A stretch of DNA of 64,000 bases, taken from assembly GCA_018061035.1 (NCBI GenBank), contig JAGOUX010000001.1:6817-70816 (forward strand). Direction: 5' to 3'. The notes under the pieces are model-generated. The model ran no database searches. It worked only from the letters and a program-made list of their open reading frames with translations, and was not told the DNA's origin. This document shows positions 14,418-40,272 of this stretch, piece after piece. The stretch comes from Minisyncoccota bacterium. GTDB lineage: Bacteria > Patescibacteriota > Minisyncoccia > Phycocordibacterales > UBA9973. The stretch's first letter is position 1. Each line of letters begins with the position of its first letter. The position numbers and the translations under genes were made by a program.

Positions 14418-15458
14418 CTACTTATCTTGCCCGATTATCTTGATTAAGGCAAGCTCTAGTGGCAATTCAGGAATGAATGTATTATCCATATTTTGATAGC
14501 TTTTGAGAAGCACTGCGAGGGCTGGGGATCGAATCATTCCTTCTTTGTCACCTTTTACTATACCTTCTAGGAAACCGAGATCTGCCTCGCTCACCCCTCC
14601 CGCCATTTCAGCCTTAAGCTTGGGCGCATAGCGGATAATTATCGCTACTCTAAATTTCTCAATGATCAGTTTGAAGTACAGCTTCAAGTCCAGATTATTT
14701 TCGTTTGCAGTTTTGACCGTACTAATACCTTTCTCAATATTCTTTTCAGCAATTGCAGAAATAAAATCATTTACCAGAACGCTCTTTGGTGCTCCAGTGA
14801 TAGCTTCCACATCTTCACGTTTGATTTTCTTATTTTTTGAAAAATTAAGTACCTTTTGGAGCTGTCCTAAGGCATCGCGGTATGATCCATCTCCCAAAAT
14901 AGCCACTAGCTCGGCACTTCCGGCATCAAGCTCGAAGCCTTCCTTTTTCGCTACATCGGTGAGCATTTTCCTGAGTATTGTGTCGCTGGGTTTCTTGAAA
15001 GTGAATATCTGGCAACGAGAAATAATTGTTTCGGGAACTTTATGAAGCTCTGTGGTCGCTAATATAAAAATGACATGTTTTGGAGGCTCTTCCAAGGTCT
15101 TCAGCAATGCATTAAATGCCTCTTTGGTAAGCATATGCACCTCGTCGATGATATATACCTTATATTTTGAATCAAATGGCAATACTCGTACTCCGTCTCG
15201 AAGTGCTTTAATATCATCGATGCCTCTATTCGAAGCGGCATCAATTTCATAGAGATCATTCACTGATACTCCAATACTGGTAGCGAAAATTCTTGCAAGC
15301 GAAGTCTTGCCAGTGCCTCGTGTTCCTACAAAAAGATAAGCGTGGGATACCTTGTTGCTCTCTACTGAACTCTCGAGTACGCTAACAATATGATCCTGCC
15401 CGAGGACTTCCTTAAATTTACTTGGTCTATATTTACGGTACAGGGCTAAATCGTGCAT
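14418..15458 (-). CDS. dnaX: DNA polymerase III subunit gamma/tau, short form
   Basis: Walker A GTRGTGKTS, LLKTLEEPP clamp-loader motif; only 346 aa. Confidence 0.85.
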   Translation of the reverse strand: MHDLALYRKYRPSKFKEVLGQDHIVSVLESSVESNKVSHAYLFVGTRGTGKTSLARIFATSIGVSVNDLYEIDAASNRGIDDIKALRDGVRVLPFDSKYKVYIIDEVHMLTKEAFNALLKTLEEPPKHVIFILATTELHKVPETIISRCQIFTFKKPSDTILRKMLTDVAKKEGFELDAGSAELVAILGDGSYRDALGQLQKVLNFSKNKKIKREDVEAITGAPKSVLVNDFISAIAEKNIEKGISTVKTANENNLDLKLYFKLIIEKFRVAIIIRYAPKLKAEMAGGVSEADLGFLEGIVKGDKEGMIRSPALAVLLKSYQNMDNTFIPELPLELALIKIIGQDK

Positions 15459-18654: not shown

Positions 18655-18663
18655 TGATATAAT
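18655..18663 (+). promoter_or_regulatory. Extended -10 element TGaTATAAT upstream of dprA
   Basis: TG-n-TATAAT, 11 nt before the ATG at 18675, with no SD; suggests a very short or leaderless transcript. Confidence 0.4.
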
Positions 18664-18674
18664 TGCAAAATAAC

Positions 18675-19535
18675 ATGTATCAATTAGAAATTTTGGAAAA
18701 AGAAAATATTCCGAAAGATTTACTCGAAATTCCACAACCTCCCAAGAAACTCTACATCTCTGGATCGCTTCCACCGAGCGGAACTATATTTTTGGCTGTA
18801 GTTGGATCAAGAAAAGCAACCAACTATGGAAAAGATGTTGTGAGGAAATTGATATCAGGACTCAAGGGTTATCCTATCGCTATTGTTTCTGGTCTGGCTC
18901 AAGGGATAGATGCTCTGGCCCATGAAGCAGCCATGGAAGCTGGATTATATGTTTTGGGTTTCCCTGGAAGTGGAATTTCAGACGAAGCTCTTTCTTATAA
19001 TCCAAATACTGCACTAATTAAAAAAGTTAGCGAGAATGGATGTCTTGTTTCGGAATTCGCACCTGATTTCAAGGCCACTTCATATGCATTTCCAATGCGC
19101 AATAGATTAGTCGCCGGGATATCAAAGGCTGCACTTATAATTGAAGCCCAGGAAAAATCAGGAACATTGATCACTGCCAGAATGGCTCTAGATTATAATA
19201 AGGAAGTTTTAGTTGTTCCAGGTCCAATTAATTCCGAGTATTCCAAGGGTACAAACAGACTTCTTAAAAATGGTGCCACCCCCATAACTTCAAGTGAAGA
19301 TATTTTGGAAGCATTGGGATTTAAATTAGATGATTCGATAAAGCAAGAAAGTTTATTTAATGATGCTTCGAATGAAGAAAAAAAGATACTCAAATTACTC
19401 ATCGAACCACTTGAGCGTGATGAATTAATTAGAAAAATGAAAATTGAAATCGGTGAGGCAAATGCCATTCTGTCTATTATGGAAATCAAAGGATTGATCA
19501 AGGAAGAGCTCGGTGAAATTCGAAAAATTTTCTAG
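18675..19535 (+). CDS. dprA: DNA processing protein DprA (Smf)
   Basis: SGLAQGIDALAHEAA (GxARGID motif). The ORF track starts at a TTG at 18663; I prefer the ATG at 18675. Confidence 0.85.
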   Translation: MYQLEILEKENIPKDLLEIPQPPKKLYISGSLPPSGTIFLAVVGSRKATNYGKDVVRKLISGLKGYPIAIVSGLAQGIDALAHEAAMEAGLYVLGFPGSGISDEALSYNPNTALIKKVSENGCLVSEFAPDFKATSYAFPMRNRLVAGISKAALIIEAQEKSGTLITARMALDYNKEVLVVPGPINSEYSKGTNRLLKNGATPITSSEDILEALGFKLDDSIKQESLFNDASNEEKKILKLLIEPLERDELIRKMKIEIGEANAILSIMEIKGLIKEELGEIRKIF

Positions 19536-19593
19536 CAAAATATTTTTGTAAATTTGCAATAGAAAACTATTTCGTGTAATACTTGTGTTGGAA

Positions 19594-19713
19594 ATGAATC
19601 CCGTTAGAAGCCGCGGTCGCATTCATTTCAAAATAAATGCTTTTACTAATATCAAAAAAATTATTACTATAAAAAAGCTTAACCGCGGTGTTACAACCGC
19701 GACCTGCTTCTAA
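19594..19713 (+). other. Upstream ORF within MITE copy 1 (39 aa, MNPVRSRGR...TATCF)
   Basis: ATG supplied by the left TSD copy, open through the element, TAA inside the right TIR 5 nt before the topA ATG. Confidence 0.45.
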
Positions 19714-19718
19714 ACGGG
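19599..19718 (+). mobile_element. MITE-like element, copy 1 (between the topA promoter and the topA start)
   Basis: TIRs CCCGTTAGAAGCCGCGGTCGC / GCGACCTGCTTCTAAACGGG; 5-bp direct repeat ATGAA at 19594-19598 and 19719-19723. Confidence 0.7.
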
Positions 19719-21935
19719 ATGAAATTATTAATCGTAGAGTCACCATCAAAAGCTAAAACTATCGAGAAATATCTCGAGGGTTCTTATACTGTGCGCGCAT
19801 CAGTTGGACATGTGCGAGATCTTCCGAAATCCAACAAAAAGGCGATCGACATCGAAGCAGGATTTCTCCCCCATTACGAAATTTCTAAAGGAAAAGAAAA
19901 AGTAGTTCACGAACTACAAGGTTTAGCTGAAAAAGCAACGGAAATAATGCTTGCGACAGACCCCGACCGTGAAGGTGAAGCCATAGCTTGGCATATTGAG
20001 ACACTTCTCCATGCAGACAAGAAAGTTAAGGCTCCGATTCATAGAGTAGCCTTTCACGAAATCACCAAAGAGGCAGTTGAAGAAGCGCTCTCACATCCCC
20101 GCAAAATAGATACTGCACTTCGAAAGGCGCAAGAAGCGCGTCGGGTACTCGATCGACTCGTAGGCTACGATCTTTCAGGAATAATTTGGAAAAAAGTTCG
20201 CTATGGATTATCTGCAGGGCGAGTTCAATCCCCAGCTCTCCGTATTATTATGGAACGTGAACGTGAGATTCGAGCTTTTGTGCCAGAAAAGTACTGGAGG
20301 CTTTTTGGAATTTTTGAAACATCTAAAAAAGATAAGCTGACACTTGAGTGTAGCGAAGAGCCTCGTGATGAAAAATTAGTAAATAAAATATTAGAAGAAG
20401 GCAAAAAGGGTTCATGGATAGTAAAGGGAGTAAAAGAGTCTGAGCAAAAGAGATCTCCTCGTGCTCCATTTACCACATCGACACTTCAGCAAACCGCGAG
20501 CTCACGATTGGGCTACTCACCTTCTCGCACTATGCAGATCGCTCAGAAGCTCTACGAAGCAGGACATATCACATATATGCGTACAGATAGTACAAACCTT
20601 GGCGCTTCTGCTCAGAGCCAAATTCTGGCATTCGTAAAAAAGCAATACGGCCCGGAATATGCTGAAGCTCACATATATAAGACTAAATCTAAGAATGCTC
20701 AAGAAGCTCACGAAGCCATCCGTCCTACACATATAGAGAAGATGCATGCCGGCACTGAGGAGCAGAGCCGTCTGTATCAACTTATTTGGGAGCGAGCTAT
20801 CTCTTCTCAGATGACCGACGCAAAACTACTCAAGACAAAAATCACCGCTGTTATCGAAGGCCATGAAGACCTCCCAGAATTCGGAGCAGTTGGCTCAAGA
20901 TTACTTTTCCCAGGATGGCTTGCAGCTGATACAGGTGCTCGAGGTGAAGATGTGGAACTACCACTTGTAAAAGCCGGCGAAAAATTAAAACTACTTGATC
21001 TCACAAGTGAAGAGAAGTTTACCGAGCCACCAGGCAGATATTCAGAGGCAGGTCTTGTGAAGGAGCTTGAGAGTAGAGGCATTGGCCGACCGTCGACCTA
21101 CGCATCTATCATGCGCACAATCGAAGATCGTGGCTATGTACGCAAGGAAGGCAAAACATTGTTCCCCACCGACACTGGTGAAGTAGTTTCAGATTTTCTC
21201 GAAGCACATTTCGCAAATTATATCTCTGATACATTTACAGCAGAAATGGAAGATGAGCTCGATGAAATCTCTCGCGGTGAACGTGAGTACGAAAAAACTT
21301 TGAAGGATTTTTATGGTCCATTCCTAAAAGAAGTTAAAGCTAAAGATAAGTTGGAAAAAGCAACCAATTTGGGAGATGCCCCAGATGGCACAAAATGTCC
21401 CAAATGTGGAAGTACGATGATTATAAAATTATCCCGAGGCGGTAAATTTTATTCTTGCTCTAAGTATCCAGACTGTGATGGTGCTCTCATGCTCGATGGT
21501 ACTGAATTAAAAGGCCCAGAAGAAACCGGCGAAATGTGTCCTACATGTGGAGACAAGAAGGGCAAATCAGGTGGAGGCAAGCTTGTTGTTCGACAGCGAC
21601 GAGACGGAGGCGGAAGTTTTATATCTTGCTCACGATATCCAAAATGCAAATTTATCAAACAAGACGAAGCGGAACTCGCTCGCAAGCGCACTGGGGTATT
21701 GTGCCCTCTGTGCAAAACCGGTGATATATCCGAACGCCGAGGCAGATTCGGAATATTCTACTCATGCTCCAACTACCCAGACTGCAAATATGCAATCAAG
21801 GCCAAGCCAACTGGAAATATTTGTAAAGAATGCGGAGCACTCATGATGGAAGGTACTAAGACAATCCCCGAGAGATGTTCAAACAAAGCATGTAAAATGC
21901 ACAATCCTCACAAAATCCCAAAAATTGAATCATAG
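19719..21935 (+). CDS. topA: DNA topoisomerase I
   Basis: TOPRIM/Topo IA core plus four C-terminal C4 zinc-ribbon repeats (CPKCG...CSKYPDC etc.). Confidence 0.9.
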   Translation: MKLLIVESPSKAKTIEKYLEGSYTVRASVGHVRDLPKSNKKAIDIEAGFLPHYEISKGKEKVVHELQGLAEKATEIMLATDPDREGEAIAWHIETLLHADKKVKAPIHRVAFHEITKEAVEEALSHPRKIDTALRKAQEARRVLDRLVGYDLSGIIWKKVRYGLSAGRVQSPALRIIMEREREIRAFVPEKYWRLFGIFETSKKDKLTLECSEEPRDEKLVNKILEEGKKGSWIVKGVKESEQKRSPRAPFTTSTLQQTASSRLGYSPSRTMQIAQKLYEAGHITYMRTDSTNLGASAQSQILAFVKKQYGPEYAEAHIYKTKSKNAQEAHEAIRPTHIEKMHAGTEEQSRLYQLIWERAISSQMTDAKLLKTKITAVIEGHEDLPEFGAVGSRLLFPGWLAADTGARGEDVELPLVKAGEKLKLLDLTSEEKFTEPPGRYSEAGLVKELESRGIGRPSTYASIMRTIEDRGYVRKEGKTLFPTDTGEVVSDFLEAHFANYISDTFTAEMEDELDEISRGEREYEKTLKDFYGPFLKEVKAKDKLEKATNLGDAPDGTKCPKCGSTMIIKLSRGGKFYSCSKYPDCDGALMLDGTELKGPEETGEMCPTCGDKKGKSGGGKLVVRQRRDGGGSFISCSRYPKCKFIKQDEAELARKRTGVLCPLCKTGDISERRGRFGIFYSCSNYPDCKYAIKAKPTGNICKECGALMMEGTKTIPERCSNKACKMHNPHKIPKIES

Positions 21936-24483: not shown

Positions 24484-24555
24484 CCCGTTAGAGATTATGT
24501 TAATTACTTGGGGAATAAAAGGTCAATTTTTATATATTTCTGGATCTCTAACGGG
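24484..24555. mobile_element. MITE-like element, copy 5 (short subfamily)
   Basis: Perfect 12-bp TIRs CCCGTTAGAGAT / ATCTCTAACGGG with a perfect 6-bp TSD ATTGAT at 24478-24483 and 24556-24561. Confidence 0.7.
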
Positions 24556-24604
24556 ATTGATTTTGAGTATAAATATGTGTATCATATGTGGATTAGCCCC
24601 TATT

Positions 24605-24688
24605 GCCCAGGTGGCGGAATTGGTAGACGCGATAGACTCAAAATCTATTGTTGGCAACAACATGAGAGTTCGATTCTCTCCCTGGGCA
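24605..24688 (+). tRNA. tRNA-Leu (anticodon CAA)
   Basis: Hand fold: acceptor GCCCAGG/CCUGGGC, anticodon loop CUCAAAA, long variable arm, T-arm GAGAG-UUCGAUU-CUCUC; 84 nt. Confidence 0.85.
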
Positions 24689-24783
24689 CAGAAACAGTAA
24701 ATTTATTTACTGTTGTGGAGAGATCGAAAGGATTTTCGTTGTTGAATGAAATGAAACCGAAAATCACCCGGCTAAGTAATAGC

Positions 24784-24806
24784 CGATTCTCTCCCTGGGC
24801 ACAGAG
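24784..24806 (+). repeat. Direct repeat of the tRNA-Leu 3' end (identical to 24671-24693)
   Basis: CGATTCTCTCCCTGGGCACAGA is repeated 113 bp downstream. Confidence 0.8.
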
Positions 24807-24819
24807 AAAATTAAACAAT

Positions 24820-26136
24820 ATGAAAAATAATACTGAGGATTTTGTAATAGAAGGCGGAAGGAAGCTTTCAGGTACGATCGAAACAAACACATCCAAAAAT
24901 GGCTCTGTGGGTCTTTTGTGCGCCGCATTGATAAATAAAGGCAAGACCACCCTTCATGGTATTTCTAAAATCGAAGAAGTCTACAGAGTCATCGAAATAC
25001 TAGAAAGTATCGGTGTCGATATTAAATGGGTTGGCGACCAAATCATCGAGATGCAACCACCAGCAAAGTTTAATCTCCGAGGTCTTGATCAGACAGCAGC
25101 ACTCAAAACTAGAAGCATCATCATGCTCGCTGGCCCGCTTATACACAATCTTAAATCCTTTTATCTTCCCCACGCTCAAGGTTGCAAACTCGGCAAACGC
25201 ACAGTTAGTGCTCATATCTACGGACTCGAAGAGCTAGGCGTAAAGATCAAGGTTACTAATCAAAACTATAATATTAGCTACAAAAAGCTTCACGCTCGAG
25301 AAATTATCATGTATGAATCTGGTGACACTGCATGCGAGAACCTCATCACCGCTGCTGCGCTAATACCCGGCAAAACTACTATAAAATTCGCCGCATCAAA
25401 TTATATGGTCCAGGAAGTATGTTTCTTTATGGAATCCTTGGGGGTTAAGATCGAGGGCATTGGTACTTCCACATTGGTAATCCATGGTGTCAAAGAGATC
25501 AACAAGGATCTCGAGTACTGCAATAGTGAAGATCCTATCGAATCTATGATGTGGATCACTGCTGCTATCGCTACAAATTCCGAACTTGAAATCAAACGCT
25601 GTCCTATAAATTTCCTAGAGCTAGAGCTTTATAAACTCAAAAAGATGGGTCTACGGTTTAAAGTTTCCCCTATTTACAAATCATACAATCACCGCACCAA
25701 CCTTGCCGATATAAAGGTTCTCCCTTCTAGGCTCAAAGCTCTCGAGGACAAGATCGAGGCACGTCCCTACCCAGGCATCAATATCGACAACCTTCCATTC
25801 TTTGGAATGATTGCCGCATGCGCCAAAGGTACAACTTTGATTCATGACTGGGTTTATGAAAATCGTGCAATTTACCTAACAGAATTAAATCGACTTGGTG
25901 GAACAGTACTTCTAGCAGATCCTCATAGAGTGTATGTGGAAGGTCCAACTAAGTGGAAACCAGGACAGCTAGTGTGCCCTCCTGCACTTCGTCCGTCTGT
26001 GGTTATCATGCTGGCTATGCTCGCAGCCAATGGTAATTCTACTCTTCACAATGTATATATGATCAAGCGCGGATATGAGGACATCGTAAACAGATTCAAC
26101 AGCATAGGTGCCAATATCAGATCAGTTCAGAACTAA
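24820..26136 (+). CDS. murA: UDP-N-acetylglucosamine 1-carboxyvinyltransferase
   Basis: EPT-fold MurA-like sequence. The ORF-track N-terminal extension runs through tRNA-Leu and is spurious; the start is the ATG at 24820. Confidence 0.85.
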   Translation: MKNNTEDFVIEGGRKLSGTIETNTSKNGSVGLLCAALINKGKTTLHGISKIEEVYRVIEILESIGVDIKWVGDQIIEMQPPAKFNLRGLDQTAALKTRSIIMLAGPLIHNLKSFYLPHAQGCKLGKRTVSAHIYGLEELGVKIKVTNQNYNISYKKLHAREIIMYESGDTACENLITAAALIPGKTTIKFAASNYMVQEVCFFMESLGVKIEGIGTSTLVIHGVKEINKDLEYCNSEDPIESMMWITAAIATNSELEIKRCPINFLELELYKLKKMGLRFKVSPIYKSYNHRTNLADIKVLPSRLKALEDKIEARPYPGINIDNLPFFGMIAACAKGTTLIHDWVYENRAIYLTELNRLGGTVLLADPHRVYVEGPTKWKPGQLVCPPALRPSVVIMLAMLAANGNSTLHNVYMIKRGYEDIVNRFNSIGANIRSVQN

Positions 26137-32239: not shown

Positions 32240-33334
32240 CTAAAATAGATTTGCTACATCATGATAGGTGATGAAGATCATAAACAAGATAAGTATTCCG
32301 AATCCGATAGTGTTGAGAGTATTTGCAACTTTTGGATTTATAGGAGAACCCTTGATCTTCTCAATAAGCAAGAAGAAAAGTCTACCACCATCTAGGGCAG
32401 GAAAAGGTACCAGATTGATAATACCTAGGTTTATAGAAATAAGAGCTGCAAAGGATAGCAGGTAAGCAAAACCGAGAGTATAGGCATCCCCCACGATACC
32501 CACCATTCCCACCGGTCCAGTCACCCCAGACAGGCTTCCTTGGCCCATAATAGCGTCTTTTATGAGCGTATAAAGGCCTACGGCGGTACTTTTGGTGACA
32601 TTAGCTGTTAGACTCATTCCCTCCTTTAAAGCCATGAAAAAGGGCAATTTTGCTATACCGATTTCATCCATGGATATGCCAATAGCGGGCACTCCAGACT
32701 CATTAACCTTTGGCTGTATATTATATTCACCAGTTTCTCCTCCTCGCATGTAGGCGATAGTGAGCTCACCTTCGCCAGTTGAAATTACAAAGTCTCGAAA
32801 AGTGTCTGGGGTGATATCATTTGTAATTGCAGTTTTTTCATTTCGAACTCCGAGAATTTTATCACCAGACTGGAGACCAGCGTGATCTGCAGGAGAATCA
32901 CCAAGAACTGAAACCACTACGAGATGTACATCTTTGAGATTAGAGCCTTTAGATTCACTTCCTACTGATGTAGGCATGCCTGACATAAATCCAAAAGAGA
33001 ACAATAGCCATGCAAGTAAAAAGTTGGCAAAAACACCTGCCCCTAGCACTATGGCTTGTTTCCACTTGGCCTTGTGTACAAAACTTCTCTCTCGATCTGG
33101 ACCATTAGTATTTTCGTCGTCTGGATTCTCTCCGAATATCTTCACAAAGCCTCCGATCGGTAGCAGATTGAATGTATACTCAGTCTCACCTTTTTTAATA
33201 CCAAAAAGCTTAGGTGGAAACCCGAAACCGAATTCATCTACCCGAATACCAAACTTTTTCGCAGAATAAAAATGTCCGAATTCATGGACGATTACTAGTA
33301 CCAATAAAATTATGATGAAAATTACTATATTCAT
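32240..33334 (-). CDS. rseP: RseP-type site-2 protease (M50 zinc metalloprotease with PDZ)
   Basis: HEFGHF zinc motif in TM1, central PDZ-like region, C-terminal TM with LDGG motif. Confidence 0.8.
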   Translation of the reverse strand: MNIVIFIIILLVLVIVHEFGHFYSAKKFGIRVDEFGFGFPPKLFGIKKGETEYTFNLLPIGGFVKIFGENPDDENTNGPDRERSFVHKAKWKQAIVLGAGVFANFLLAWLLFSFGFMSGMPTSVGSESKGSNLKDVHLVVVSVLGDSPADHAGLQSGDKILGVRNEKTAITNDITPDTFRDFVISTGEGELTIAYMRGGETGEYNIQPKVNESGVPAIGISMDEIGIAKLPFFMALKEGMSLTANVTKSTAVGLYTLIKDAIMGQGSLSGVTGPVGMVGIVGDAYTLGFAYLLSFAALISINLGIINLVPFPALDGGRLFFLLIEKIKGSPINPKVANTLNTIGFGILILFMIFITYHDVANLF

Positions 33335-33340
33335 TCGGTC

Positions 33341-33892
33341 TTACCCCATTACTTCGGTCTGCTTCTTCTCAAATATTGCCTCAAGAGAATTGTTGGCTTC
33401 GTTGATTATCTTCTGAAGCTCTTCCTTTGCTCGGAATAGCTCGTCCTCGGTCATCTTGCCTTCCTTTTCTTGTGCAGTAATTGTTGAAAGTACATTCTCA
33501 CGTTCCTTGCGGACAGTGATTCTGGAATCTTCCAACTTCTCTTTCAGGACTTTTACTAGTCGCTCTCTGGTTTCGGTTGTGAGCTGAGGGAAGATAACTC
33601 TCATTCCGGCATCGTCAGTAGCCACAGACAATCCCAAATTTGCCGCTACGATAGCGCGCTCGATATCCTTAAGCTGATTTTTATCCCACGGCGCAATGCG
33701 GAGTGTTTTTGGATCCTCGATAGATACAGATGCTAGGTTCTTGATCGGCATATATTGCCCATAGCTCTCTACAGAAACACCATCCAATATCATTGGTGAG
33801 GCTCGGCCGACATTGAGCTGGCTGTACTCTTTGCTGAGGAATTCCTCTACTTTCTTAAGATCATTTTTGAAAACGGAAAAATTGTATAACAT
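33341..33892 (-). CDS. frr: Ribosome recycling factor
   Basis: 183-aa RRF-like sequence in the usual position. Confidence 0.9.
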   Translation of the reverse strand: MLYNFSVFKNDLKKVEEFLSKEYSQLNVGRASPMILDGVSVESYGQYMPIKNLASVSIEDPKTLRIAPWDKNQLKDIERAIVAANLGLSVATDDAGMRVIFPQLTTETRERLVKVLKEKLEDSRITVRKERENVLSTITAQEKEGKMTEDELFRAKEELQKIINEANNSLEAIFEKKQTEVMG

Positions 33893-33915
33893 ATGCTTAT
33901 TGTAACATACTAAAT

Positions 33916-34647
33916 TTATTTTAATAAATGAGGAGTCACAAGGGCCACTGACTCCATCAAACTCTTCGTACTTGAGCCTGGCATACGGAGAAATTTACGA
34001 ACTTTAAAAACATGCTCCAAAGAAAACAAAAGCTCTTTATTGTCAGGATTATTCTTTAGGCTCGCACCCATAATTGATTCGATTCCATTCAAAAACACCA
34101 TTGCTCTTGCTCGTGCAGAATTTTCACTTTCTATTTCTTTACCCTCTTCGTCTACTTGCTCTTCTTCCACTAGCATATCTTTAATATAATCGATTCGTTT
34201 AAAAAGAGGCATTCTTAGAAAATTTTCAATTTCATTATCTTCATTCTTTCTATTCTTGGCAGTAATAAAATAAAACCGAGAAATAAGAGTTGGTAAAAGA
34301 GCATTCCGGTCTGGAATGATTATAAAAAAATGAGTATTCTCTATAGGTTCCTCAAACATTTTTAGCAATGTATTTTGCGCTTCAAATAGAAAACTATTTA
34401 CCGAAACCACAAATATTTTTTTATTTTCTGAATATCCTTTCTCTGTTGCTAAGGCTTTCAAATTTCTAGCATCATCAATTTTGAATGAATCTATATGAAT
34501 ATGAGTAAAATCTGCATTTCCCACAGTAGCAACTCCCAAACTTTCAGCAAAACTAAAAATTTGAGGAAGCAATTCTTCCTTATCTCCTTCAATTAGAAAT
34601 GCATGATGTAGATTATCCTTGTCCAGATTTTGAAAGATTAGGTTCAT
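33916..34647 (-). CDS. DNA polymerase III delta-prime-like clamp-loader subunit
   Basis: N-terminal HHAFLIEGDKE resembles the holB hHAyLf.G pattern; no intact P-loop. Confidence 0.45.
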   Translation of the reverse strand: MNLIFQNLDKDNLHHAFLIEGDKEELLPQIFSFAESLGVATVGNADFTHIHIDSFKIDDARNLKALATEKGYSENKKIFVVSVNSFLFEAQNTLLKMFEEPIENTHFFIIIPDRNALLPTLISRFYFITAKNRKNEDNEIENFLRMPLFKRIDYIKDMLVEEEQVDEEGKEIESENSARARAMVFLNGIESIMGASLKNNPDNKELLFSLEHVFKVRKFLRMPGSSTKSLMESVALVTPHLLK

Positions 34648-34693
34648 AGGTTCTAGGTTCTAGAAGCTAATCACTAGCCACTAGCACCTGATT
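34648..34693. repeat. CTAG-rich intergenic repeat (copy A)
   Basis: AGGTTCTAGGTTCTAGAAGCTAATCACTAGCCACTAGCACCTG fills the whole holB-like/mreB intergenic space; its reverse complement matches 45681-45756. Confidence 0.7.
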
Positions 34694-35707
34694 TTACTTC
34701 TTACTTAATACTGTTTTCTTATATACGTCCAAGTGATCGAGTGCTATGCCTGTACCTTTGACAACACAAAATAATGCATCCTCTGCTAGATTTGCCTTTA
34801 CTCCAGTCTTGCGATATACGAGATCAGTAAGATTGCGGAGCTGAGATGAGCCACCAGTCATGATTATTCCGTGATCCATGATATCAGAAGCCAATTCGGG
34901 TGGAGTCTCCTGAAGTACGTCCTTAATAGCTTTAATAATTTGTTTCAATTCTCCATCAATAGCTCTAACTATTTCATTTGTACCTACCTGAGCGCTTCGA
35001 GGCAAGCCTTGTATAAAATCTCTACCTTTGATTGTTACTCTTAGTTCTTCATCGAGAAGTATTGCTGCTCCAATTTTAATTTTAACTTCTTCGGCTGTTC
35101 TATCACCAATGGCTAGGTTGAAAGTTTTTTTAATATAGTCTGCGATAGCTTGATCAATTTTATTGCCAGCACACTTTACAGAAGTAGAAGCAACGATTCC
35201 GCCAAGCGAAATCACAGCTACGTCTGTGGTGCCTCCGCCTATGTCTACTACCATATACCCTTTTGATTCATATATGGGAATTCCCGCACCGATAGCTGCC
35301 AAAATCGGCTCTTTGACGACATAAGCATTTCTAGCGCCTGCGCGAATTGCAGCTTCTACCACTGCTCGACGTTCGGTCGAAGTCACTCCAGCTGGCACAG
35401 AGACCATCACATCTGGTTTGAAAAAATTCCATTTACCCATAGCCTTGCTGATAAAATATCTGAGCATTGCTTCAGTCACTCGATAATCCGCAATGACTCC
35501 ATCCTTCATCGGACAATATGTAATAATAGATTCGGGTGTCTTGCCGATCATATCTTTCGCTTCGAAACCAATAGCTAAAATTTTATTATCTTGCTCTGAA
35601 ACTGCTACCACTGATGGTTCATTTAATACTATTCCTTTGCCGGGCATAAATACGAGCGTATTTGCAGTACCCAAATCTATTCCTAATTTCTTTGAAAAAA
35701 TACCCAT
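34694..35707 (-). CDS. mreB: Rod-shape-determining protein MreB
   Basis: Actin-fold MreB sequence (GIDLGTANT, DIGGGTTD). Confidence 0.9.
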   Translation of the reverse strand: MGIFSKKLGIDLGTANTLVFMPGKGIVLNEPSVVAVSEQDNKILAIGFEAKDMIGKTPESIITYCPMKDGVIADYRVTEAMLRYFISKAMGKWNFFKPDVMVSVPAGVTSTERRAVVEAAIRAGARNAYVVKEPILAAIGAGIPIYESKGYMVVDIGGGTTDVAVISLGGIVASTSVKCAGNKIDQAIADYIKKTFNLAIGDRTAEEVKIKIGAAILLDEELRVTIKGRDFIQGLPRSAQVGTNEIVRAIDGELKQIIKAIKDVLQETPPELASDIMDHGIIMTGGSSQLRNLTDLVYRKTGVKANLAEDALFCVVKGTGIALDHLDVYKKTVLSKK

Positions 35708-35821
35708 CCCGTTAGAAGCAGGTCACGGTTGAATAACCGTGATTTAGCTTGATTATCTTATTAAATTTTTGAAGTTTGATTATCATTTTTTCTTAATATT
35801 GTGACCACTATTTCTAACGGG
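35708..35821. mobile_element. MITE-like element, copy 3 (abutting the mreB start codon)
   Basis: TIRs CCCGTTAGAAGCAGGTCACGG / TGTGACCACTATTTCTAACGGG; perfect 6-bp TSD ACCCAT at 35702-35707 and 35822-35827. Confidence 0.7.
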
Positions 35822-35863
35822 ACCCATGAAAGTAATATAACACATATATGCTAGAATAAAAGC

Positions 35864-37780
35864 ATGAAAATCGTTACCGTTATTCCGCTCGAAAAAACTG
35901 CATTTTCTGGAATTCTGACATATTTTACCTCTAAAGAATTGTCACCTGGAAGCATCGTTTCTATCGCTATTCGCAACAAAAAGATACTCGGCTTAGCTGT
36001 ATCTGTAGAAGAAGCTGAAGATATGAAAAGCGATATAAAGGGTATGGATTTCAATCTTCGAAAGATACTCGACGTCAAGGAGCATTCCCTATTTCGAGGT
36101 GAATTTCTTGATGCTGCTTTTATGACTAGCGAATACTTTGGAAGTACAAAAAATAGCGGACTTTCTCTCCTAATCCCCACTATACTAAAAACAGAGTACG
36201 ACAAAATTTCAAAATTTGTACCTGCCACAACTATTTCAAGTCAGCACTCTGAAATACGTCCAGAGAAATTGCTATTACAGATGCCGTTTGAAGAAAGAAT
36301 TTCAGTTTATAAAACTTTAATTCGTGAAAATTTTGCAGTCAAAAAATCTATCTTCATAGTCCTGCCGACCGAGCAAGATATAAAAGAAATTTCTGGGATA
36401 TTATCTAAGGGTATTGAACAATTCACTTATGCCTTGTACAGCAACCTAAGTGAAAAAAAGACACTACATGCAATACAAGGCATTATTACCAACGCTCATC
36501 CGATATTGATTTTGGGCACTGCACCATTTTTGTCTGTGCCACGTTATGATATCGGTACAATAATCCTCGAACACGAGAGCTCAAATGCGTACCGAAACAT
36601 TGGTCGCCCACACATGGATCAAAGAGTCTTCGCCGAAATATTTGCCTCAAAAATAAATGCTAAAATTATTTTTAGTGATACTATGCTTCGATTTGAAACT
36701 ATTGGCCGAGAAGAAATCGACAACTTTGCGCCGATGCATCCGATGTCTTACCGAATAGACCTGGCAAAAGAAATTCAAATTTTGGACAAAGGAGACAAAT
36801 TTAAGGTGCTCTCAGACGAGGTGATAAGAGAAATCACGGCTACATTAGAAAAAGGCGAGAATGCTTTTGTATTCGCCCTTCGAAAGGGCCTAGCGACTAT
36901 GACTGCATGTCGAGATTGTAGCCATGTAGTAGATTGCGAAAATTGTGGCGGGCCAGTGGTATTGTATTTATCTCGTGATGGCAAAAAACGAATGTTCATC
37001 TGTAATAGATGTAAAAATCAAATGAAAGATGATACCTATTGCAAAAGTTGTGGCTCATGGAATCTCATGCCACTAGGTATAGGCACCGACACAGTAGAAC
37101 TCGCTTTAAGAGAAATATTTCCTAAGATTAAATTATTTAAAATAGACAAAGAGGCAGTAAAAAGTTCCAAGGGTGCCGAAAAAATCGTTGAAGAATTTGA
37201 ATCAGAAAAAGGAGCTATTTTGATAGGAACAGAGATGGCCCTATATTATATTCACAAACAAATTCCCCTTTCGATAATATCTTCCTTCGAAACTCTATGG
37301 GGCATTCCGAATTTCAAAATGAGTGAAAAGGTGATCCAGCTTATATTGGCCCTCCATTCAAAATCTTCAAAAAAGTTGATTGTGCAAACCAAAAACCCAA
37401 CCGACCCGGTGATACAGGCAGTGCAATCTGGAAATCTAGTTTCTTTTGTGCGTAGTGAACTAGAAGACAGAAAAAACTTGGACTATCCTCCCTATAAGCG
37501 TTTCGTTAAAATTACCCACACTGGAGAAAAATCTGATTCTGTAAATGCCAAAGAAGCATTGTTAGAAGTATTCTCGCCATACCAGCCGGAAATTTTTGGA
37601 GGATTTATTGGTTCAAGTAAAAATAAATATGTCACCAATATGTTGATCAAAATCGAACCATCAAAATGGTCCCTACCCGAATTATCTACTGGTGGAACAT
37701 TGGACAAAAATCTCCTTTTGAAATTATTATCACTGCCTTCTGTTTTTGATATATATATCGACCCTGAAGATCTGCTGTAA
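35864..37780 (+). CDS. PriA-like primosomal protein with degenerate helicase motifs
   Basis: PriA-like N-terminal 3' DNA-binding domain and Cys-rich zinc region (CRDCSHVVDCENCGG...CNRCKNQ). Walker A position reads MPFEERIS, the DEEH box reads LEHE, and motif VI is absent. Confidence 0.6.
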   Translation: MKIVTVIPLEKTAFSGILTYFTSKELSPGSIVSIAIRNKKILGLAVSVEEAEDMKSDIKGMDFNLRKILDVKEHSLFRGEFLDAAFMTSEYFGSTKNSGLSLLIPTILKTEYDKISKFVPATTISSQHSEIRPEKLLLQMPFEERISVYKTLIRENFAVKKSIFIVLPTEQDIKEISGILSKGIEQFTYALYSNLSEKKTLHAIQGIITNAHPILILGTAPFLSVPRYDIGTIILEHESSNAYRNIGRPHMDQRVFAEIFASKINAKIIFSDTMLRFETIGREEIDNFAPMHPMSYRIDLAKEIQILDKGDKFKVLSDEVIREITATLEKGENAFVFALRKGLATMTACRDCSHVVDCENCGGPVVLYLSRDGKKRMFICNRCKNQMKDDTYCKSCGSWNLMPLGIGTDTVELALREIFPKIKLFKIDKEAVKSSKGAEKIVEEFESEKGAILIGTEMALYYIHKQIPLSIISSFETLWGIPNFKMSEKVIQLILALHSKSSKKLIVQTKNPTDPVIQAVQSGNLVSFVRSELEDRKNLDYPPYKRFVKITHTGEKSDSVNAKEALLEVFSPYQPEIFGGFIGSSKNKYVTNMLIKIEPSKWSLPELSTGGTLDKNLLLKLLSLPSVFDIYIDPEDLL

Positions 37781-37827
37781 TTGACTTAGCTCATATTTGA
37801 TGTAAAGTTCAGTCAGACATTATCCAT

Positions 37828-38088
37828 ATGGGGCACAGCGTCCCAAAAGGAGTACACGTGTGGCATGGACGGAATTACGTTCCCAGTTACCGCTTCATCA
37901 TGCGGTCACCTCGTCCAGGCGAAATGATCCTTGATGAAGTGACCACCTGCGCATCTCTCTTGGAGGCATGTAGATGGGCAGAAATGAATTTCCCGCAAGG
38001 GGGTACGCTGTGGCATGGGGATACAGCAGTTCTTTGTGTTCCTCAGATGAAGTTCGAAGCAGTAAATACGCAAGGGGCGGCGTCGTGA
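37828..38088 (+). CDS. Hypothetical protein in GC-rich island A
   Basis: 86-aa ORF with GC-rich codons in an otherwise AT-rich genome, followed by the GC hairpin GGGGCGGCGTCGTGAGAACGACCCGCCCC. Confidence 0.35.
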   Translation: MGHSVPKGVHVWHGRNYVPSYRFIMRSPRPGEMILDEVTTCASLLEACRWAEMNFPQGGTLWHGDTAVLCVPQMKFEAVNTQGAAS

Positions 38089-38112
38089 GAACGACCCGCC
38101 CCTAAAATATGC

Positions 38113-38907: not shown

Positions 38908-39420
38908 TCAGCGCGGCCTGGAGAGCCAGAGATGAGGCACCAGCTCTTGGAGAGCCTCAGCTTGGGCCTCAGTGAGACCTACAGCCAGCACGGTGCCGAG
39001 CGCCGTCGTCATCAGTTTGGTCTCAGCGAAGGGGTCGCCATCCTGCATCAACCGCCTCCGGTTGAAGGCCGCCACGATGCGTGACGACTCCTCGTTATTC
39101 AGGCAAGGCGTCGTAGAGCTCATGGTGCAGGCCCCGACCAACAACGTCTCCTTTTTATCCGCAAACATCGCGTGGATGAACCAGGCATCCCCACCAGCAT
39201 TTATCTTTGTGACGTCTGTGCCGTACCTGGCCTTCGTCGGCTCGGGCAACAGCAATAGCGCAACGCAAAATGCTGCGCCAACACCACCGACAATCAATGT
39301 AGTGACCGCCAGCCACCACGCGAGGATCTGAGACTGTCCACCCGCCAGCCACTTGATTGAATCCGCCACACAAAAAGTGCAAACAAGCACCACCAACACT
39401 AACACGATCTTTCTGAACAT
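38908..39420 (-). CDS. Hypothetical two-TM membrane protein (GC-rich island B)
   Basis: GC-rich codon usage; likely start at MFRKIVLVLVV; GC hairpin terminator downstream at ~38831-38858. Confidence 0.4.
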   Translation of the reverse strand: MFRKIVLVLVVLVCTFCVADSIKWLAGGQSQILAWWLAVTTLIVGGVGAAFCVALLLLPEPTKARYGTDVTKINAGGDAWFIHAMFADKKETLLVGACTMSSTTPCLNNEESSRIVAAFNRRRLMQDGDPFAETKLMTTALGTVLAVGLTEAQAEALQELVPHLWLSRPR

Positions 39421-39598
39421 TTTTCCCCCTTGAGTTAATATACGATCCAAGATAAAGCACTAAAAATTCAAATATATTAAATTCTTAATGCTTTATCCAA
39501 GATTTTTTATTTTAAATGAGCAAAACATTATACTCTTGTAGTATAGCATAAATTATAGCAAAAGTCAATATTATTGTATTTAAAATAAAACTAATACA

Positions 39599-39639: not shown

Positions 39640-40272
39640 TTACAAGTGATTTTCAATCCGCAGGGCGGATTTGAAGAACCGGATCTTGTCATGCCGGTTC
39701 TTGGAATTGCAGCCCGCCTGGTACGCCAGGATGGCGTCCTTCTTGCGGACTACTCGCGCATCGGCCTCCAAGTTGGCCACCCGTCGATCTCCCTGCACCG
39801 GCATCGACGAAGCAGGTTCCGGATCAACACCCTTCCGCTGGAGTGACTCGAGAAGGCCGCGGTGCGACTTCTTGTGCTTCTCGGCCGAGCCGTTGTCCTC
39901 GAAGGCGACGAACCACTTCTTGAGTTCGTACAGGTTCCGGCACGCATCGAACCCAAGACGGAGTGCTCGACGTTCGTCCTCCGGCAGGTCGCGCTTGGCC
40001 AAGATCCGCTCGAACCTTGTACGAAACTTTTCCCGTCGTTCGAACGCCACGCGATTCTTCTTAAGGCCCGCGAGACAGGTGTTCACGAAATCGATGGCCT
40101 CCGTGATCACTTCGGGTTTTTTGTCCCCGAGAACCTCGGCGTACTCTGAATAATCCAGAGCCTGCCTAGCCGCTGAAGCCAACGCCGTTTTCAGGATGTT
40201 CATCCTGAGATTGGCGTCGACTTCCCCCCGCAGCCTGTCTGCCTGTGTCAAAAGCTCACTACGTTTCGACAT
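39640..40272 (-). CDS. Hypothetical charged/helical protein (GC-rich island B)
   Basis: 210-aa ORF with strongly GC-biased third codon positions; the antisense ORFs are Arg/Ser-rich artefacts. Confidence 0.5.
   Translation of the reverse strand: MSKRSELLTQADRLRGEVDANLRMNILKTALASAARQALDYSEYAEVLGDKKPEVITEAIDFVNTCLAGLKKNRVAFERREKFRTRFERILAKRDLPEDERRALRLGFDACRNLYELKKWFVAFEDNGSAEKHKKSHRGLLESLQRKGVDPEPASSMPVQGDRRVANLEADARVVRKKDAILAYQAGCNSKNRHDKIRFFKSALRIENHL

What the first reader, a model, noticed from the sequence alone, without database searches (positions are those of the whole stretch)
35864..37780. PriA-like protein that appears ATPase/helicase-dead
Seen directly: the N-terminal 3'-DNA-binding-domain-like region and a Cys-rich zinc region (CRDCSHVVDCENCGG ... 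CNRCKNQ ... CKSCG) are present. Where PriA has Walker A GxTGSGKT this protein reads LQMPFEERISVY. The DEEH box is LEHE, the SAT motif is GTAPF, and the motif VI QxxGRxGR is missing. A PriA without ATPase or helicase activity has precedent (the Deinococcus PriA is reported to lack helicase function). That would imply a primosome-loading role that relies only on DNA-structure binding.
Basis: partly seen in the sequence, partly recalled or inferred. Interest (0 to 1): 0.5.

Follow-up and report, generated by a model that had tools for sequence, protein, structure and literature searches.

The report
Motor-dead PriA replication-restart protein
This gene is the bacterium's own copy of PriA, the protein that restarts broken DNA replication forks, but in this whole group of tiny uncultured bacteria (Paceibacteria) its ATP-burning helicase motor has been erased and replaced by a different, conserved set of residues, so it most likely works only as a DNA-fork-recognising scaffold.

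Summary
ORF 35864..37780 (+, 638 aa) is a full-length PriA homologue: TIGR00595 E=2e-56, HHalign to E. coli PriA probability 100%, AlphaFold model TM 0.72-0.75 to PriA structures. It keeps the 3'-DNA-binding domain, both RecA-like lobes, all eight zinc cysteines and the C-terminal domain. It has no P-loop: GVTGSGKT becomes MPFEERIS. Walker B DEEH is EHES, motif III is FSDTM, and motif VI carries a 5-residue deletion. The winged-helix domain is absent.

GTAPF is motif Ib, not SAT, and DEEH aligns to EHES, not LEHE. The conclusion still holds.

This is a lineage-wide state, not decay. In 380 relatives (31-99% identity, Nomurabacteria/Vogelbacteria/Paceibacterota) none has a P-loop and 379 have Arg at the Walker lysine position. 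The replaced motifs are more conserved than their domain averages, and dN/dS is 0.05-0.2. Distant relatives sit in the classical priA-def-fmt position, which argues for orthology.

The best explanation is a PriA pseudohelicase that recognises forks and nucleates helicase reloading without ATP. This matches D. radiodurans PriA and E. coli PriA K230R. I rate it a new, more extreme variant of a known kind. A second intact priA elsewhere in the genome could not be excluded.

The parts
35864..37780 (+). priA-like gene, 638 codons plus stop: full-length PriA homologue with a degenerate helicase core (pseudohelicase).
   Evidence: ORF. PriA homology. dN/dS of 0.049 against a 99%-identical homologue.
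35708..35863 (.). 156 bp AT-rich (GC 0.31) divergent intergenic region between mreB (-) and priA (+). It presumably holds both promoters.
   Evidence: Coordinates and GC. The mreB/priA divergent arrangement is conserved in 77 of 80 related genomes. No strong sigma-70 consensus for the + strand was found here, so the promoter is inferred, not shown.
35864..36178 (+). 3'-DNA-binding domain (3'BD), aa 1-105. Pocket residues are largely retained: Y20 (Ec Y18), R66/K67 (Ec K61) and T19 (Ec D17).
   Evidence: Pfam PF17764 E=1.3e-4, 22.1 bits against cutoff 22.7. 51 of 59 diverse family members hit it. Column counts: Y 143/144, K/R 143/144, S/T 137/144.
36179..36265 (+). Short variable linker (aa 106-134) in place of the ~70-90 residue winged-helix (WH) domain of E. 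coli PriA.
   Evidence: Large gap opposite E. coli residues ~110-200. pLDDT is below 50 at residues 124-131. This region has the highest entropy, 3.42 bits. PF21213 PriA-like_WH hits E. coli PriA but 0 of 59 family members. The engineered E. coli PriA delta-WH (6dcr) has the highest TM in both directions among the top PriA chains.
36266..36763 (+). RecA-like helicase lobe 1 (aa ~135-300; boundaries approximate) carrying the degenerate motifs I, Ia, Ib, II and III.
   Evidence: Fold match, HHalign and secondary structure.
36278..36316 (+). Pseudo-Walker A: Q139-M-P-F-E143-E144-R145-I-S-V-Y149-K-T. It has no glycines, a one-residue deletion, and Arg in place of the catalytic Lys. Family consensus is Q-x-x-x-[ED]-[ED]-R.
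   Evidence: R in 379/380 and an acidic residue before it in 366/380.
36560..36583 (+). Pseudo-Walker B: I-I-L-E236-H237-E238-S239-S, aligned to E. coli V-I-D320-E-E-H323-D. The second (catalytic) Glu is replaced by His/Arg/Lys in the family.
   Evidence: E 282 / D 98; H 138 / R 102 / K 79; E 370 of 380. This is the lowest-entropy segment, 1.40 bits.
36584..36625 (+). Segment corresponding to the PriA aromatic-rich loop (Ec 325-338): N-A-Y243-R-N-I-G-R-P249-H-M-D252-Q-R254. Y243, P249, D252 and R254 are near-invariant in the family.
   Evidence: column counts (Y 133, P 139, D 141, R 138 of 144). The role of this loop at the fork junction in E. coli is described in PMC10175261.
36668..36697 (+). 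Pseudo-motif III: I-F-S-D272-T-M-L-R-F-E, aligned to E. coli I-L-G-S356-A-T-P-A-L-E. Asp replaces Ser.
   Evidence: D in 366/380. Entropy 1.53 bits.
36872..36895 (+). Motif IV retained: F-A-L-R340-K-G342-L-A (E. coli F-L-N-R-R-G-F-A).
   Evidence: R 136/144, G 142/144.
36908..37054 (+). Cysteine-rich region (CRR). Four CxxC pairs (C349/352, C358/361, C380/383, C393/396) give two predicted Zn sites, plus the beta-hairpin between them.
   Evidence: for positions. Each Cys is kept in at least 374 of 380 members. It aligns column-for-column with E. coli C436...C479.
37217..37237 (+). Motif V retained: I-L-I-G455-T456-E457-M (E. coli I-L-I-G-T-Q-M).
   Evidence: T 143/144, E 130/144.
37340..37390 (+). 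Pseudo-motif VI: L-I-L-A-L-H-S-K-S-S-K-K-L-I-V-Q-T. The QxxGRxGR arginine-finger motif is absent and five residues are deleted.
   Evidence: gap in 144/144 opposite Ec G586-K590. One search agrees.
37499..37777 (+). C-terminal domain (aa ~546-638), PriA CTD-like, ending in the family-conserved VDPEDLL (E. coli ends VDPIEG).
   Evidence: HHalign covers Ec 631-729. The fold match spans the whole chain. Pfam PriA_C is reached by only 3 of 59 members.

Best explanation
This is the lineage's orthologous priA (primosomal protein N'), and it has evolved into a pseudohelicase.

**Shown**
- The protein keeps the whole PriA architecture except the winged-helix domain: 3'BD, two RecA-like lobes, two-zinc CRR with its beta-hairpin, and CTD.
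- Every element that binds and hydrolyses ATP has been replaced: the P-loop glycines, Lys and Thr, the catalytic Glu of DExH, the Ser/Thr of motif III and the arginine finger of motif VI.
- The replacement residues are themselves strongly conserved across Paceibacteria. They are Q-x3-[ED]-[ED]-R at motif I, E-[HRK]-E-S at motif II, and D at motif III.

**Inferred**
- The protein cannot hydrolyse ATP or unwind DNA.
- It still recognises abandoned forks and D-loops. The 3'BD pocket would hold the nascent leading-strand 3' end, and HD1, CRR and CTD would hold the arms.
- It then serves as an ATP-independent platform that recruits the replicative helicase, directly or through a loader or SSB, to restart replication. 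D. radiodurans PriA and E. coli PriA K230R work in this way.
- The conserved charged residues in the former nucleotide cleft probably form an interlobe salt-bridge network that replaces the nucleotide and fixes the lobes in one conformation.
For: - **Homology and fold.**, with a high-confidence model.
- **Motif loss confirmed by two alignment methods.**
- **Secondary structure at the old P-loop.** The model gives strand 135-139 followed directly by helix 142-158, so the glycine-rich loop is reduced to two residues.
- **Clade-wide state.** 0 of 380 members have a P-loop, R145 is present in 379/380, and the 8 Cys are each kept in at least 374/380.
- **Generic helicase models.** DEAD and Helicase_C are each reached by only 1 of 59 members, while the PriA-specific 3'BD is reached by 51 of 59. 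E. coli PriA as control hits all of them.
- **Not decaying.** dN/dS is 0.049 against the nearest homologue and the median is 0.21 over 187 pairs. The pseudo-motifs have lower entropy (1.4-2.0 bits) than the domain mean of ~2.1.
- **Stable core gene.** The holB-mreB/priA arrangement is kept in 73-77 of 80 species genomes.
- **Orthology.** 4 of 5 distant members lie in priA-def-fmt. B. subtilis has the defA-fmt operon, and a cited title places a promoter inside priA (PMC8359813).
- **Mechanistic precedent.** D. radiodurans PriA pseudohelicase binds ssDNA, forks and DnaB (PMC4504706). E. coli K230R behaves much like wild type in vivo, and K230A loads DnaB in vitro (PMC5778457; PMC10175261).
- **DNA-contact residues retained.** Y18, K61 and parts of the aromatic-rich loop.
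Against: - No biochemical measurement exists. Loss of ATPase activity is inferred from motifs only.
- The high conservation of the remodelled cleft could equally mean that it binds some ligand.
- D17 and F16 of the 3'-end pocket are changed (to S/T and L), and the WH domain that contacts parental duplex in E. coli is missing. Fork recognition may therefore differ.
- No partner gene (DnaB, DnaC/DnaI, DciA, DnaD, PriB, SSB) lies in the window, so the downstream pathway is unknown.
- A second, intact priA elsewhere in the genome was not excluded.
- The score is below the TIGR00595 trusted cutoff (191.5 against 230.35).
Confidence: 0.72

Rival explanations
1. Neofunctionalised paralogue. A canonical, motor-competent priA exists elsewhere in these genomes, and this protein does something else with DNA, such as a structural, recombination or segregation role next to mreB.
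For: - Only 64 kb of the genome was visible, and whole genomes could not be scanned.
- The tight linkage to mreB and holB is not typical of priA.
- The protein scores below the TIGR00595 cutoff.
Against: - There is no second PriA-like sequence in the window.
- The gene occupies the classical priA-def-fmt slot in 4 of 5 distant relatives.
- The complete PriA-specific architecture is retained, including the 3'BD pocket residues and CRR.
- From general knowledge, these genomes are very small, so redundancy is unlikely. Contigs up to 716 kb carry the gene.
Confidence: 0.1
2. Cryptic enzyme. The remodelled cleft (Q139, E143/E144, R145, E236, H/R/K237, E238, D272, R340, T456/E457) still binds a nucleotide or another phosphorylated ligand in a non-P-loop way. 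That binding would drive a conformational switch or weak translocation.
For: - The former ATP-site residues are among the most conserved in the family.
- Motifs IV and V are kept.
- The literature mentions a possible second, weaker nucleotide site in E. coli PriA (PMC5778457).
Against: - There is no glycine-rich loop to form the phosphate anion hole.
- Two acidic residues precede R145 and would repel phosphate.
- The arginine finger of motif VI is deleted.
- K230R alone abolishes ATPase activity in E. coli (PMC5778457; PMC4504706).
Confidence: 0.08
3. Decaying pseudogene or annotation/alignment artefact. On this reading the motifs are simply eroding, or were mis-registered.
For: Pfam recognises only a sub-threshold 3'BD.
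Against: - The reading frame is intact at the same ~620-660 aa length in almost all of the hundreds of relatives found.
- dN/dS is 0.05-0.2.
- The replacement residues are conserved.
- Two alignment methods and a fold comparison agree on registration.
Confidence: 0.01

Closest known systems
Canonical PriA / primosomal protein N' (E. coli, K. pneumoniae; PDB 4nl4, 6dgd, 8fak)
   Same: - Same overall fold and domain order: 3'BD, RecA lobe 1, RecA lobe 2 with inserted two-zinc CRR, then CTD (TM 0.72-0.75; HHalign over 591 columns).
- Motifs IV and V, the eight cysteines, Y18 and K61 of the 3'-end pocket, and the C-terminal VDP are conserved.
- Relatives lie in priA-def-fmt.
   Different: - Only ~21% identity.
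- Walker A, Walker B, motif III and motif VI are all non-functional by sequence.
- The WH domain is absent.
- It fails the TIGR00595 cutoff and all generic helicase Pfam models.
Deinococcus radiodurans PriA pseudohelicase (Lopper, Boone & Morrow 2015, PMC4504706)
   Same: - A natural PriA with Lys-to-Arg at the Walker A lysine and a poor Walker B.
- It is proposed to keep fork binding and helicase recruitment without ATPase or helicase activity.
- Here R145 occupies the same position in 379 of 380 members.
   Different: - A different phylum: Paceibacteria (CPR/Patescibacteria), not Deinococcus-Thermus.
- The degeneration is more extreme. The whole glycine-rich loop is gone and shortened, motif III is changed, and motif VI is deleted.
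- Whether the two losses are independent was not tested, because no Deinococcus sequence was available.
- The 2017 review still lists Deinococcus as the only exception (PMC5778457).
Engineered E. coli variants priA300 (K230R), K230A and PriA delta-WH (PDB 6dcr)
   Same: - K230R/K230A are ATPase- and helicase-dead but support PriA-PriB restart in vivo and DnaB loading in vitro.
- The delta-WH protein is among the closest structural matches to this model (TM 0.74/0.73).
- The natural protein here combines both features.
   Different: - Those are single-site or single-domain laboratory mutants in an otherwise canonical protein that works with PriB, DnaT and DnaC.
- In E. coli the helicase-dead allele is defective in the PriA-PriC pathway.
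- The partners in Paceibacteria are unknown.
Other SF2 fork or DNA translocases (Mfd, RecG-like)
   Same: Shared two-lobe RecA-like SF2 core. Mfd is the next-best structural hit (E ~1e-11 to 1e-9).
   Different: - TM is only 0.28-0.40 and alignments are partial.
- These proteins lack the 3'BD, CRR and PriA CTD.
- They are not candidates for membership.

Membership tests
PriA / primosomal protein N' (TIGR00595, PRK05580) | Significant full-length sequence and fold similarity to characterised PriA | tested here: met
   TIGR00595 E=2.1e-56. PDB PriA E=1e-28. HHalign probability 100%. Foldseek TM 0.72-0.75.
PriA / primosomal protein N' (TIGR00595, PRK05580) | Score above the curated equivalog cutoff | tested here: not met
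   191.5 bits against a cutoff of 230.35 for TIGR00595. All PRK05580 and PRK14873 equivalogs score far below their cutoffs.
PriA / primosomal protein N' (TIGR00595, PRK05580) | N-terminal 3'-DNA-binding domain with the 3'-end pocket | tested here: met
   PF17764 at 22.1 bits against cutoff 22.7 for the query. 51 of 59 family members hit at E<=1e-3. Y18 and K61 equivalents are conserved, while D17 is S/T.
PriA / primosomal protein N' (TIGR00595, PRK05580) | Winged-helix DNA-binding domain between 3'BD and the helicase core (as in E. coli) | tested here: not met
   The alignment shows a gap opposite Ec ~110-200. PF21213 hits 0 of 59 members but does hit E. coli PriA. N-terminal length varies among PriAs (PMC4504706), so this feature may not be universal.
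PriA / primosomal protein N' (TIGR00595, PRK05580) | Walker A GxxGxGK[ST] (motif I) | tested here: not met
   The sequence is MPFEERIS. 0 of 380 members have a P-loop, and Arg replaces Lys in 379 of 380.
PriA / primosomal protein N' (TIGR00595, PRK05580) | Walker B DExH (motif II), motif III (SAT-like) and motif VI (QxxGRxGR) | tested here: not met
   The sequences are EHES and FSDTM, and motif VI carries a 5-residue deletion.
PriA / primosomal protein N' (TIGR00595, PRK05580) | Cysteine-rich region with eight Cys (two Zn) inserted in lobe 2 | tested here: met
   C349, 352, 358, 361, 380, 383, 393 and 396 align to Ec C436-C479 and are each kept in at least 374 of 380 members. Zinc binding itself was not tested.
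PriA / primosomal protein N' (TIGR00595, PRK05580) | PriA C-terminal domain | tested here: met
   HHalign covers Ec 631-729, and the whole-chain fold match includes it. Pfam PF18074 is reached by only 3 of 59 members, so the match is by profile and fold rather than by the curated model.
PriA / primosomal protein N' (TIGR00595, PRK05580) | Conserved genomic position (priA-def-fmt in many bacteria) | tested here: inconclusive
   Met in 4 of 5 distant family members. Not met in the window, where rsmI lies downstream. The B. subtilis reference arrangement is taken from PMC8359813 and my own knowledge.
PriA / primosomal protein N' (TIGR00595, PRK05580) | DNA-dependent ATPase and 3'-5' helicase activity; primosome assembly | not testable with these tools
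   This needs purified protein and genetics.
PriA pseudohelicase (Deinococcus-Thermus type, PMC4504706) | PriA homologue with the Walker A lysine replaced (K to R) and a poor Walker B | tested here: met
   R145 aligns to K230, and EHES aligns to DEEH.
PriA pseudohelicase (Deinococcus-Thermus type, PMC4504706) | No ATPase or helicase activity, but fork/ssDNA binding and DnaB interaction retained | not testable with these tools
   This is a biochemical definition.
PriA pseudohelicase (Deinococcus-Thermus type, PMC4504706) | Common descent with the Deinococcus-Thermus pseudohelicase clade | not tested
The different phylum and the different extent of loss suggest independent origin, but that is inference.

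The most novel reading that the evidence does not exclude
The former ATP cleft may be a newly evolved functional site rather than a dead relic, conserved across the whole class Paceibacteria. On this reading the invariant Arg and its acidic and basic partners act as a built-in 'nucleotide mimic', or as a docking site for a partner. That would lock PriA in the fork-engaged conformation, so that this PriA alone, without WH, PriB, DnaT or DnaD, hands the replicative helicase onto forks. One of the most species-rich bacterial lineages would then run replication restart with no PriA motor at all. This would overturn the textbook statement that PriA helicase activity is conserved in all bacteria except Deinococcus.
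Probability: 0.25. Interest if true: 0.6.

Novelty: new variant of a known kind. Interest (0 to 1): 0.45.

Why it matters
- **Current view in the field.** PriA is the central replication-restart protein of bacteria. [quoted passage not shown]
- **What this adds.** A second and much larger exception appears here. Every sampled Paceibacteria PriA, across hundreds of sequence clusters, lacks all ATP-handling motifs and the WH domain, yet is under strong purifying selection.
- **A natural experiment.** It could show which PriA functions are indispensable (fork recognition, CRR, CTD) and which are optional (motor, WH).
- **An open question made testable.** The review asks whether PriA can act alone, and without ATP, in bacteria that lack PriB, PriC, DnaT and DnaD. 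This family offers a way to test that.
- **Practical consequence.** NCBI labels many of these proteins 'hypothetical protein', probably because they miss the curated model cutoffs, as the query does. Replication-restart capacity in CPR genomes may therefore be under-annotated.

Tried and rejected
- **Mis-registered motifs.** Tested with MAFFT and HHalign. Both give the same registration, so this is rejected.
- **'GK[ST]' strings in some relatives.** Those at ~155-167 align to E. coli A-Q-G-K-Q before motif Ia, not to the P-loop. They are chance matches.
- **Second priA in the window.** The family HMM on a six-frame translation, and tblastn with E. coli PriA, hit only this ORF.
- **Phage or defence-system helicase.** PADLOC and PHROGs give no hits.
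- **Pseudogene.** Rejected by dN/dS and conservation.
- **Diverse alignment A2 as a genome-scan query.** A1 was used instead, so only close relatives (>=50% identity) were retrieved from GTDB genomes.
- **AFDB50 fold search for organism labels.** The library was unavailable.
- **The listing of cluster members for taxon names of distant members.** It gave few names, none outside Paceibacterota/Pacebacteria.
- **DNA of the 66%-identical homologue P0002.** It could not be fetched.
- **Literature on degenerate PriA in CPR/Patescibacteria or mycobacteria.** Nothing relevant was found.
- **Primosome partner genes in the window.** None was found among the ORFs scanned.
- **Third homology search.** Not used. 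A seed inside the family would return family members again and could not resolve the second-copy question.
Full report
**1. The observation**

The window contains an ATG-initiated ORF at exactly 35864..37780 (+) encoding 638 aa. It is unmistakably a PriA homologue:
- NCBIfam TIGR00595 'replication restart helicase PriA' gives E=2.1e-56, and PRK05580 sub-models go down to 1.7e-59. All score below their curated equivalog cutoffs (191.5 against 230.35 bits for TIGR00595).
- phmmer against PDB finds only PriA chains, with 4nl4/6dgd at E=1.1e-28.
- Pfam sees only a PriA_3primeBD match just under threshold (22.1 against 22.7 bits) and no DEAD, ResIII, Helicase_C, PriA_C, Zn_ribbon_PriA or PriA-like_WH.
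- E. coli PriA, run as a positive control, hits all of those models.

**2. Motif registration**

I fetched E. coli priA and aligned it with the query and its relatives by MAFFT. I also aligned it independently by profile-profile HHalign (probability 100%, E=1.4e-40, 591 columns). Both methods give the same registration:

| Element | E. coli PriA | Query |
|---|---|---|
| Walker A (motif I) | G224-V-T-G-S-G-K230-T | M140-P-F-E-E-R145-I-S, with G224 deleted and no glycine left |
| Walker B (motif II) | D320-E-E-H | E236-H-E-S |
| Motif III | G-S356-A-T-P | S-D272-T-M-L |
| Motif VI | Q-V-A-G-R-A-G-R | A-L-H-S-K-S plus a five-residue deletion |
| Motif Ia | VPEIGLT | LPTEQDI |
| Motif Ib | IGTRSALF | LGTAPFLS |
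| Motif IV | RRGF | RKGL |
| Motif V | LIGTQM | LIGTEM |

Motifs Ia, Ib, IV and V remain recognisable. All eight CRR cysteines are present (C349, 352, 358, 361, 380, 383, 393, 396).

Two placements were wrong. 'GTAPF' is motif Ib rather than the SAT motif, and DEEH corresponds to EHES rather than LEHE. The winged-helix (WH) domain is also absent. E. coli residues ~110-200 face a short, variable, low-confidence linker (aa 106-134).

**3. Structure**

An AlphaFold2 model built on a 120-sequence alignment is confident (pLDDT 87.4, pTM 0.87). Foldseek against the PDB ranks PriA chains first (E 4e-38 to 1e-27, TM 0.66-0.75). The engineered E. coli PriA delta-WH protein (6dcr_A, TM 0.74/0.73) is among the best matches. 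The next family, Mfd, is 27 orders of magnitude weaker.

In the model, strand 135-139 is followed almost directly by helix 142-158. The glycine-rich phosphate-binding loop is therefore reduced to two residues, and R145 sits in the first helical turn where K230 would be (together with the alignments).

**4. A clade-wide, selected state**

*Size and spread of the family*
- A word-indexed search of 5.8 billion clusters returned 826 hits. The top 120 are all ~640 aa and ~55% identical, labelled Patescibacteria, Paceibacterota, Nomurabacteria or Minisyncoccia.
- An exhaustive phmmer search of 1.84 billion 50%-identity representatives found 1,445 proteins at E<=1e-30. The best 150 (55% down to 32% identity) are nearly all 620-660 aa.
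- A further search seeded from a 33%-identical member reached Vogelbacteria- and Parcubacteria-labelled sequences.

*Motif state across 380 full-length members (31-99% identity to the query)*
- None has a P-loop, and 379 have Arg at the K230 position.
- 366 have Asp or Glu at the residue just before that Arg.
- Walker B reads E/D-[H/R/K]-E in the great majority.
- Asp replaces the motif III Ser in 366.
- Each of the eight cysteines is kept in at least 374.

*Evidence for selection*
- The replaced motifs are more conserved than their surroundings (entropy 1.40-1.96 bits for pseudo-motifs I-III against ~2.1 for the lobes).
- Only 1 of 59 diverse members still reaches DEAD and 1 of 59 reaches Helicase_C. 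By contrast 51 of 59 reach the PriA 3'BD model, and none reaches the WH model.
- dN/dS between the window gene and a 99%-identical metagenomic homologue is 0.049 (22 synonymous and 4 conservative non-synonymous changes).
- The median over 187 pairs among 80 species genomes is 0.21.

The gene is therefore under strong purifying selection, and so is the remodelled cleft.

**5. Orthologue or paralogue**
- No second PriA-like sequence exists in the 64 kb window (family HMM on six-frame ORFs, and tblastn with E. coli PriA).
- A scan of GTDB species genomes found 192 species encoding a relative. In the 80 best loci the neighbourhood is stable: mreB lies divergently upstream in 77, a holB-like delta' gene is within 6 kb in 73, and rsmI in 71.
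- In more distant members, the gene is directly followed by def and fmt on the same strand in 4 of 5 contigs examined, again with holB-mreB upstream.
- priA-def-fmt is the arrangement in B. subtilis. There the defA-fmt-... operon is described, and a cited paper's title places a promoter inside priA (PMC8359813, plus my own knowledge).
- This positional conservation argues that the family is the lineage's orthologous priA.
- I could not scan whole genomes, because the tools return at most 10 kb either side. An intact second copy elsewhere is unlikely but not excluded.

**6. Mechanism**

*What is shown.* The DNA-recognition and scaffold parts of PriA are retained, and the ATP-handling residues are not.

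*What is established elsewhere*
- E. coli priA300 (K230R) lacks ATPase, helicase and translocase activity, yet cells behave much like wild type and the protein is active in restart assays. Helicase activity is needed only for the PriA-PriC route and some special substrates (PMC5778457).
- D. radiodurans PriA, which has K-to-R at Walker A and a poor Walker B, has no ATPase or helicase activity but binds ssDNA, forks and DnaB (PMC4504706).

*Inference.* The Paceibacteria protein is a pseudohelicase that recognises abandoned forks or D-loops and nucleates reloading of the replicative helicase without ATP. Supporting details are that Y18 (Y in 143/144) and K61 (K/R in 143/144) of the 3'-end pocket are kept, and several aromatic-rich-loop positions are near-invariant.

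*Differences that may matter*
- D17 is Ser/Thr and F16 is Leu.
- The WH domain that contacts parental duplex is missing.
- No partner genes are visible in the window.

The conserved charged residues in the old cleft (E143/E144, R145, E236, H/R/K237, E238, D272, R340) suggest an interlobe salt-bridge network standing in for nucleotide. This is speculation, because I had no access to the model coordinates.

**7. Rivals**
- A paralogue with a new role (0.10) is disfavoured by synteny and architecture.
- A cryptic non-P-loop nucleotide site (0.08) is disfavoured by the missing anion hole, the acidic residues and the deleted arginine finger.
- A pseudogene or artefact (0.01) is refuted.
- A phage or defence origin has no support.

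**8. Comparison with the known, and novelty**

It works like, and by homology is, a PriA. However, it fails the family's curated score cutoff and every catalytic-motif criterion, so it should be filed as a divergent PriA pseudohelicase rather than a PriA helicase.

The concept already exists for Deinococcus-Thermus. The held literature lists that as the only exception, and I found no report for CPR/Patescibacteria. Three things are new here:
- the phylogenetic scale, apparently all sampled Paceibacteria;
- the extent of the loss, covering motifs I, II, III and VI plus WH;
- the fact that the replacement residues are conserved.

I rate this a new variant of a known kind with moderate interest (0.45). 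It is not shocking, given priA300 and Deinococcus. It is still a useful natural experiment for the open question of whether PriA can restart replication alone and without a motor.

**9. Limits**
- No biochemistry was possible.
- Whole-genome copy number is untested.
- The relationship to the Deinococcus clade is untested.
- The family boundary is unknown, including which CPR classes still have intact PriA. Only the best 120-150 hits of each search could be inspected.

Noticed in passing
window 37781-38112, 38908-39450 and 39640-40272: Three GC-rich segments (GC 0.50, 0.56 and 0.58, against ~0.38 for the surroundings) flank the conserved rsmI-like gene. The first holds an 86-codon ORF (37828-38088, +) followed by a GC-rich hairpin. 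The other two are ORFs of 180 and 210 aa on the - strand. The latter two have no Pfam hit, and none of the three has a PADLOC hit. The only PHROG match is a weak one to an unknown-function family (phrog_36584, E=5e-4). No DNA match exists in 86 related loci, where rsmI is usually followed directly by the atp operon. They look like small lineage-specific foreign insertions.
   Followed up: partly
window 32240-35707 (- strand), and L084-L087: A gene block of rseP (M50 protease), frr, a holB-like DNA pol III delta' gene and mreB lies divergently upstream of priA. It is conserved from Nomurabacteria to Vogelbacteria-type genomes. A clamp-loader subunit and the restart protein bracket mreB across the class.
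   Followed up: partly
window 24508-26136 (+) and tRNA-Leu 24605-24689 (+): The mechanically called 542-aa MurA/EPSP-synthase-family ORF starts at a TTG upstream of a same-strand tRNA-Leu gene and runs through it, so its true start must lie downstream of 24689. In distant relatives (L084, L086) the equivalent gene next to priA is fused to an N-terminal HTH_3 domain (~502 aa). That is an unusual architecture for this enzyme family.
   Followed up: no
window 18663-21935 (+); also L086 10187-13914: dprA (DNA-processing protein A) lies directly upstream of topA. In one relative the same pair, with serS, lies within 5 kb of priA.
   Followed up: no
window 14418-15458 (-): dnaX is short (346 aa: AAA+ module and DNA_pol3_delta2 only), with no long tau C-terminal extension.
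   Followed up: no
window 35851-36228 (-): A 125-codon GTG ORF lies antisense inside the 5' part of priA. No support was found, and it is most likely a spurious ORF.
   Followed up: no
L009, L017, L021, L047 and others: Many GTDB records that carry a 51-56% identical copy of this Paceibacteria-type gene are titled 'uncultured Candidatus Saccharibacteria bacterium', and one is titled 'Burkholderiales bacterium' (L056). These submitter labels are probably mis-assignments or bin contamination rather than real occurrences outside Paceibacteria.
   Followed up: no
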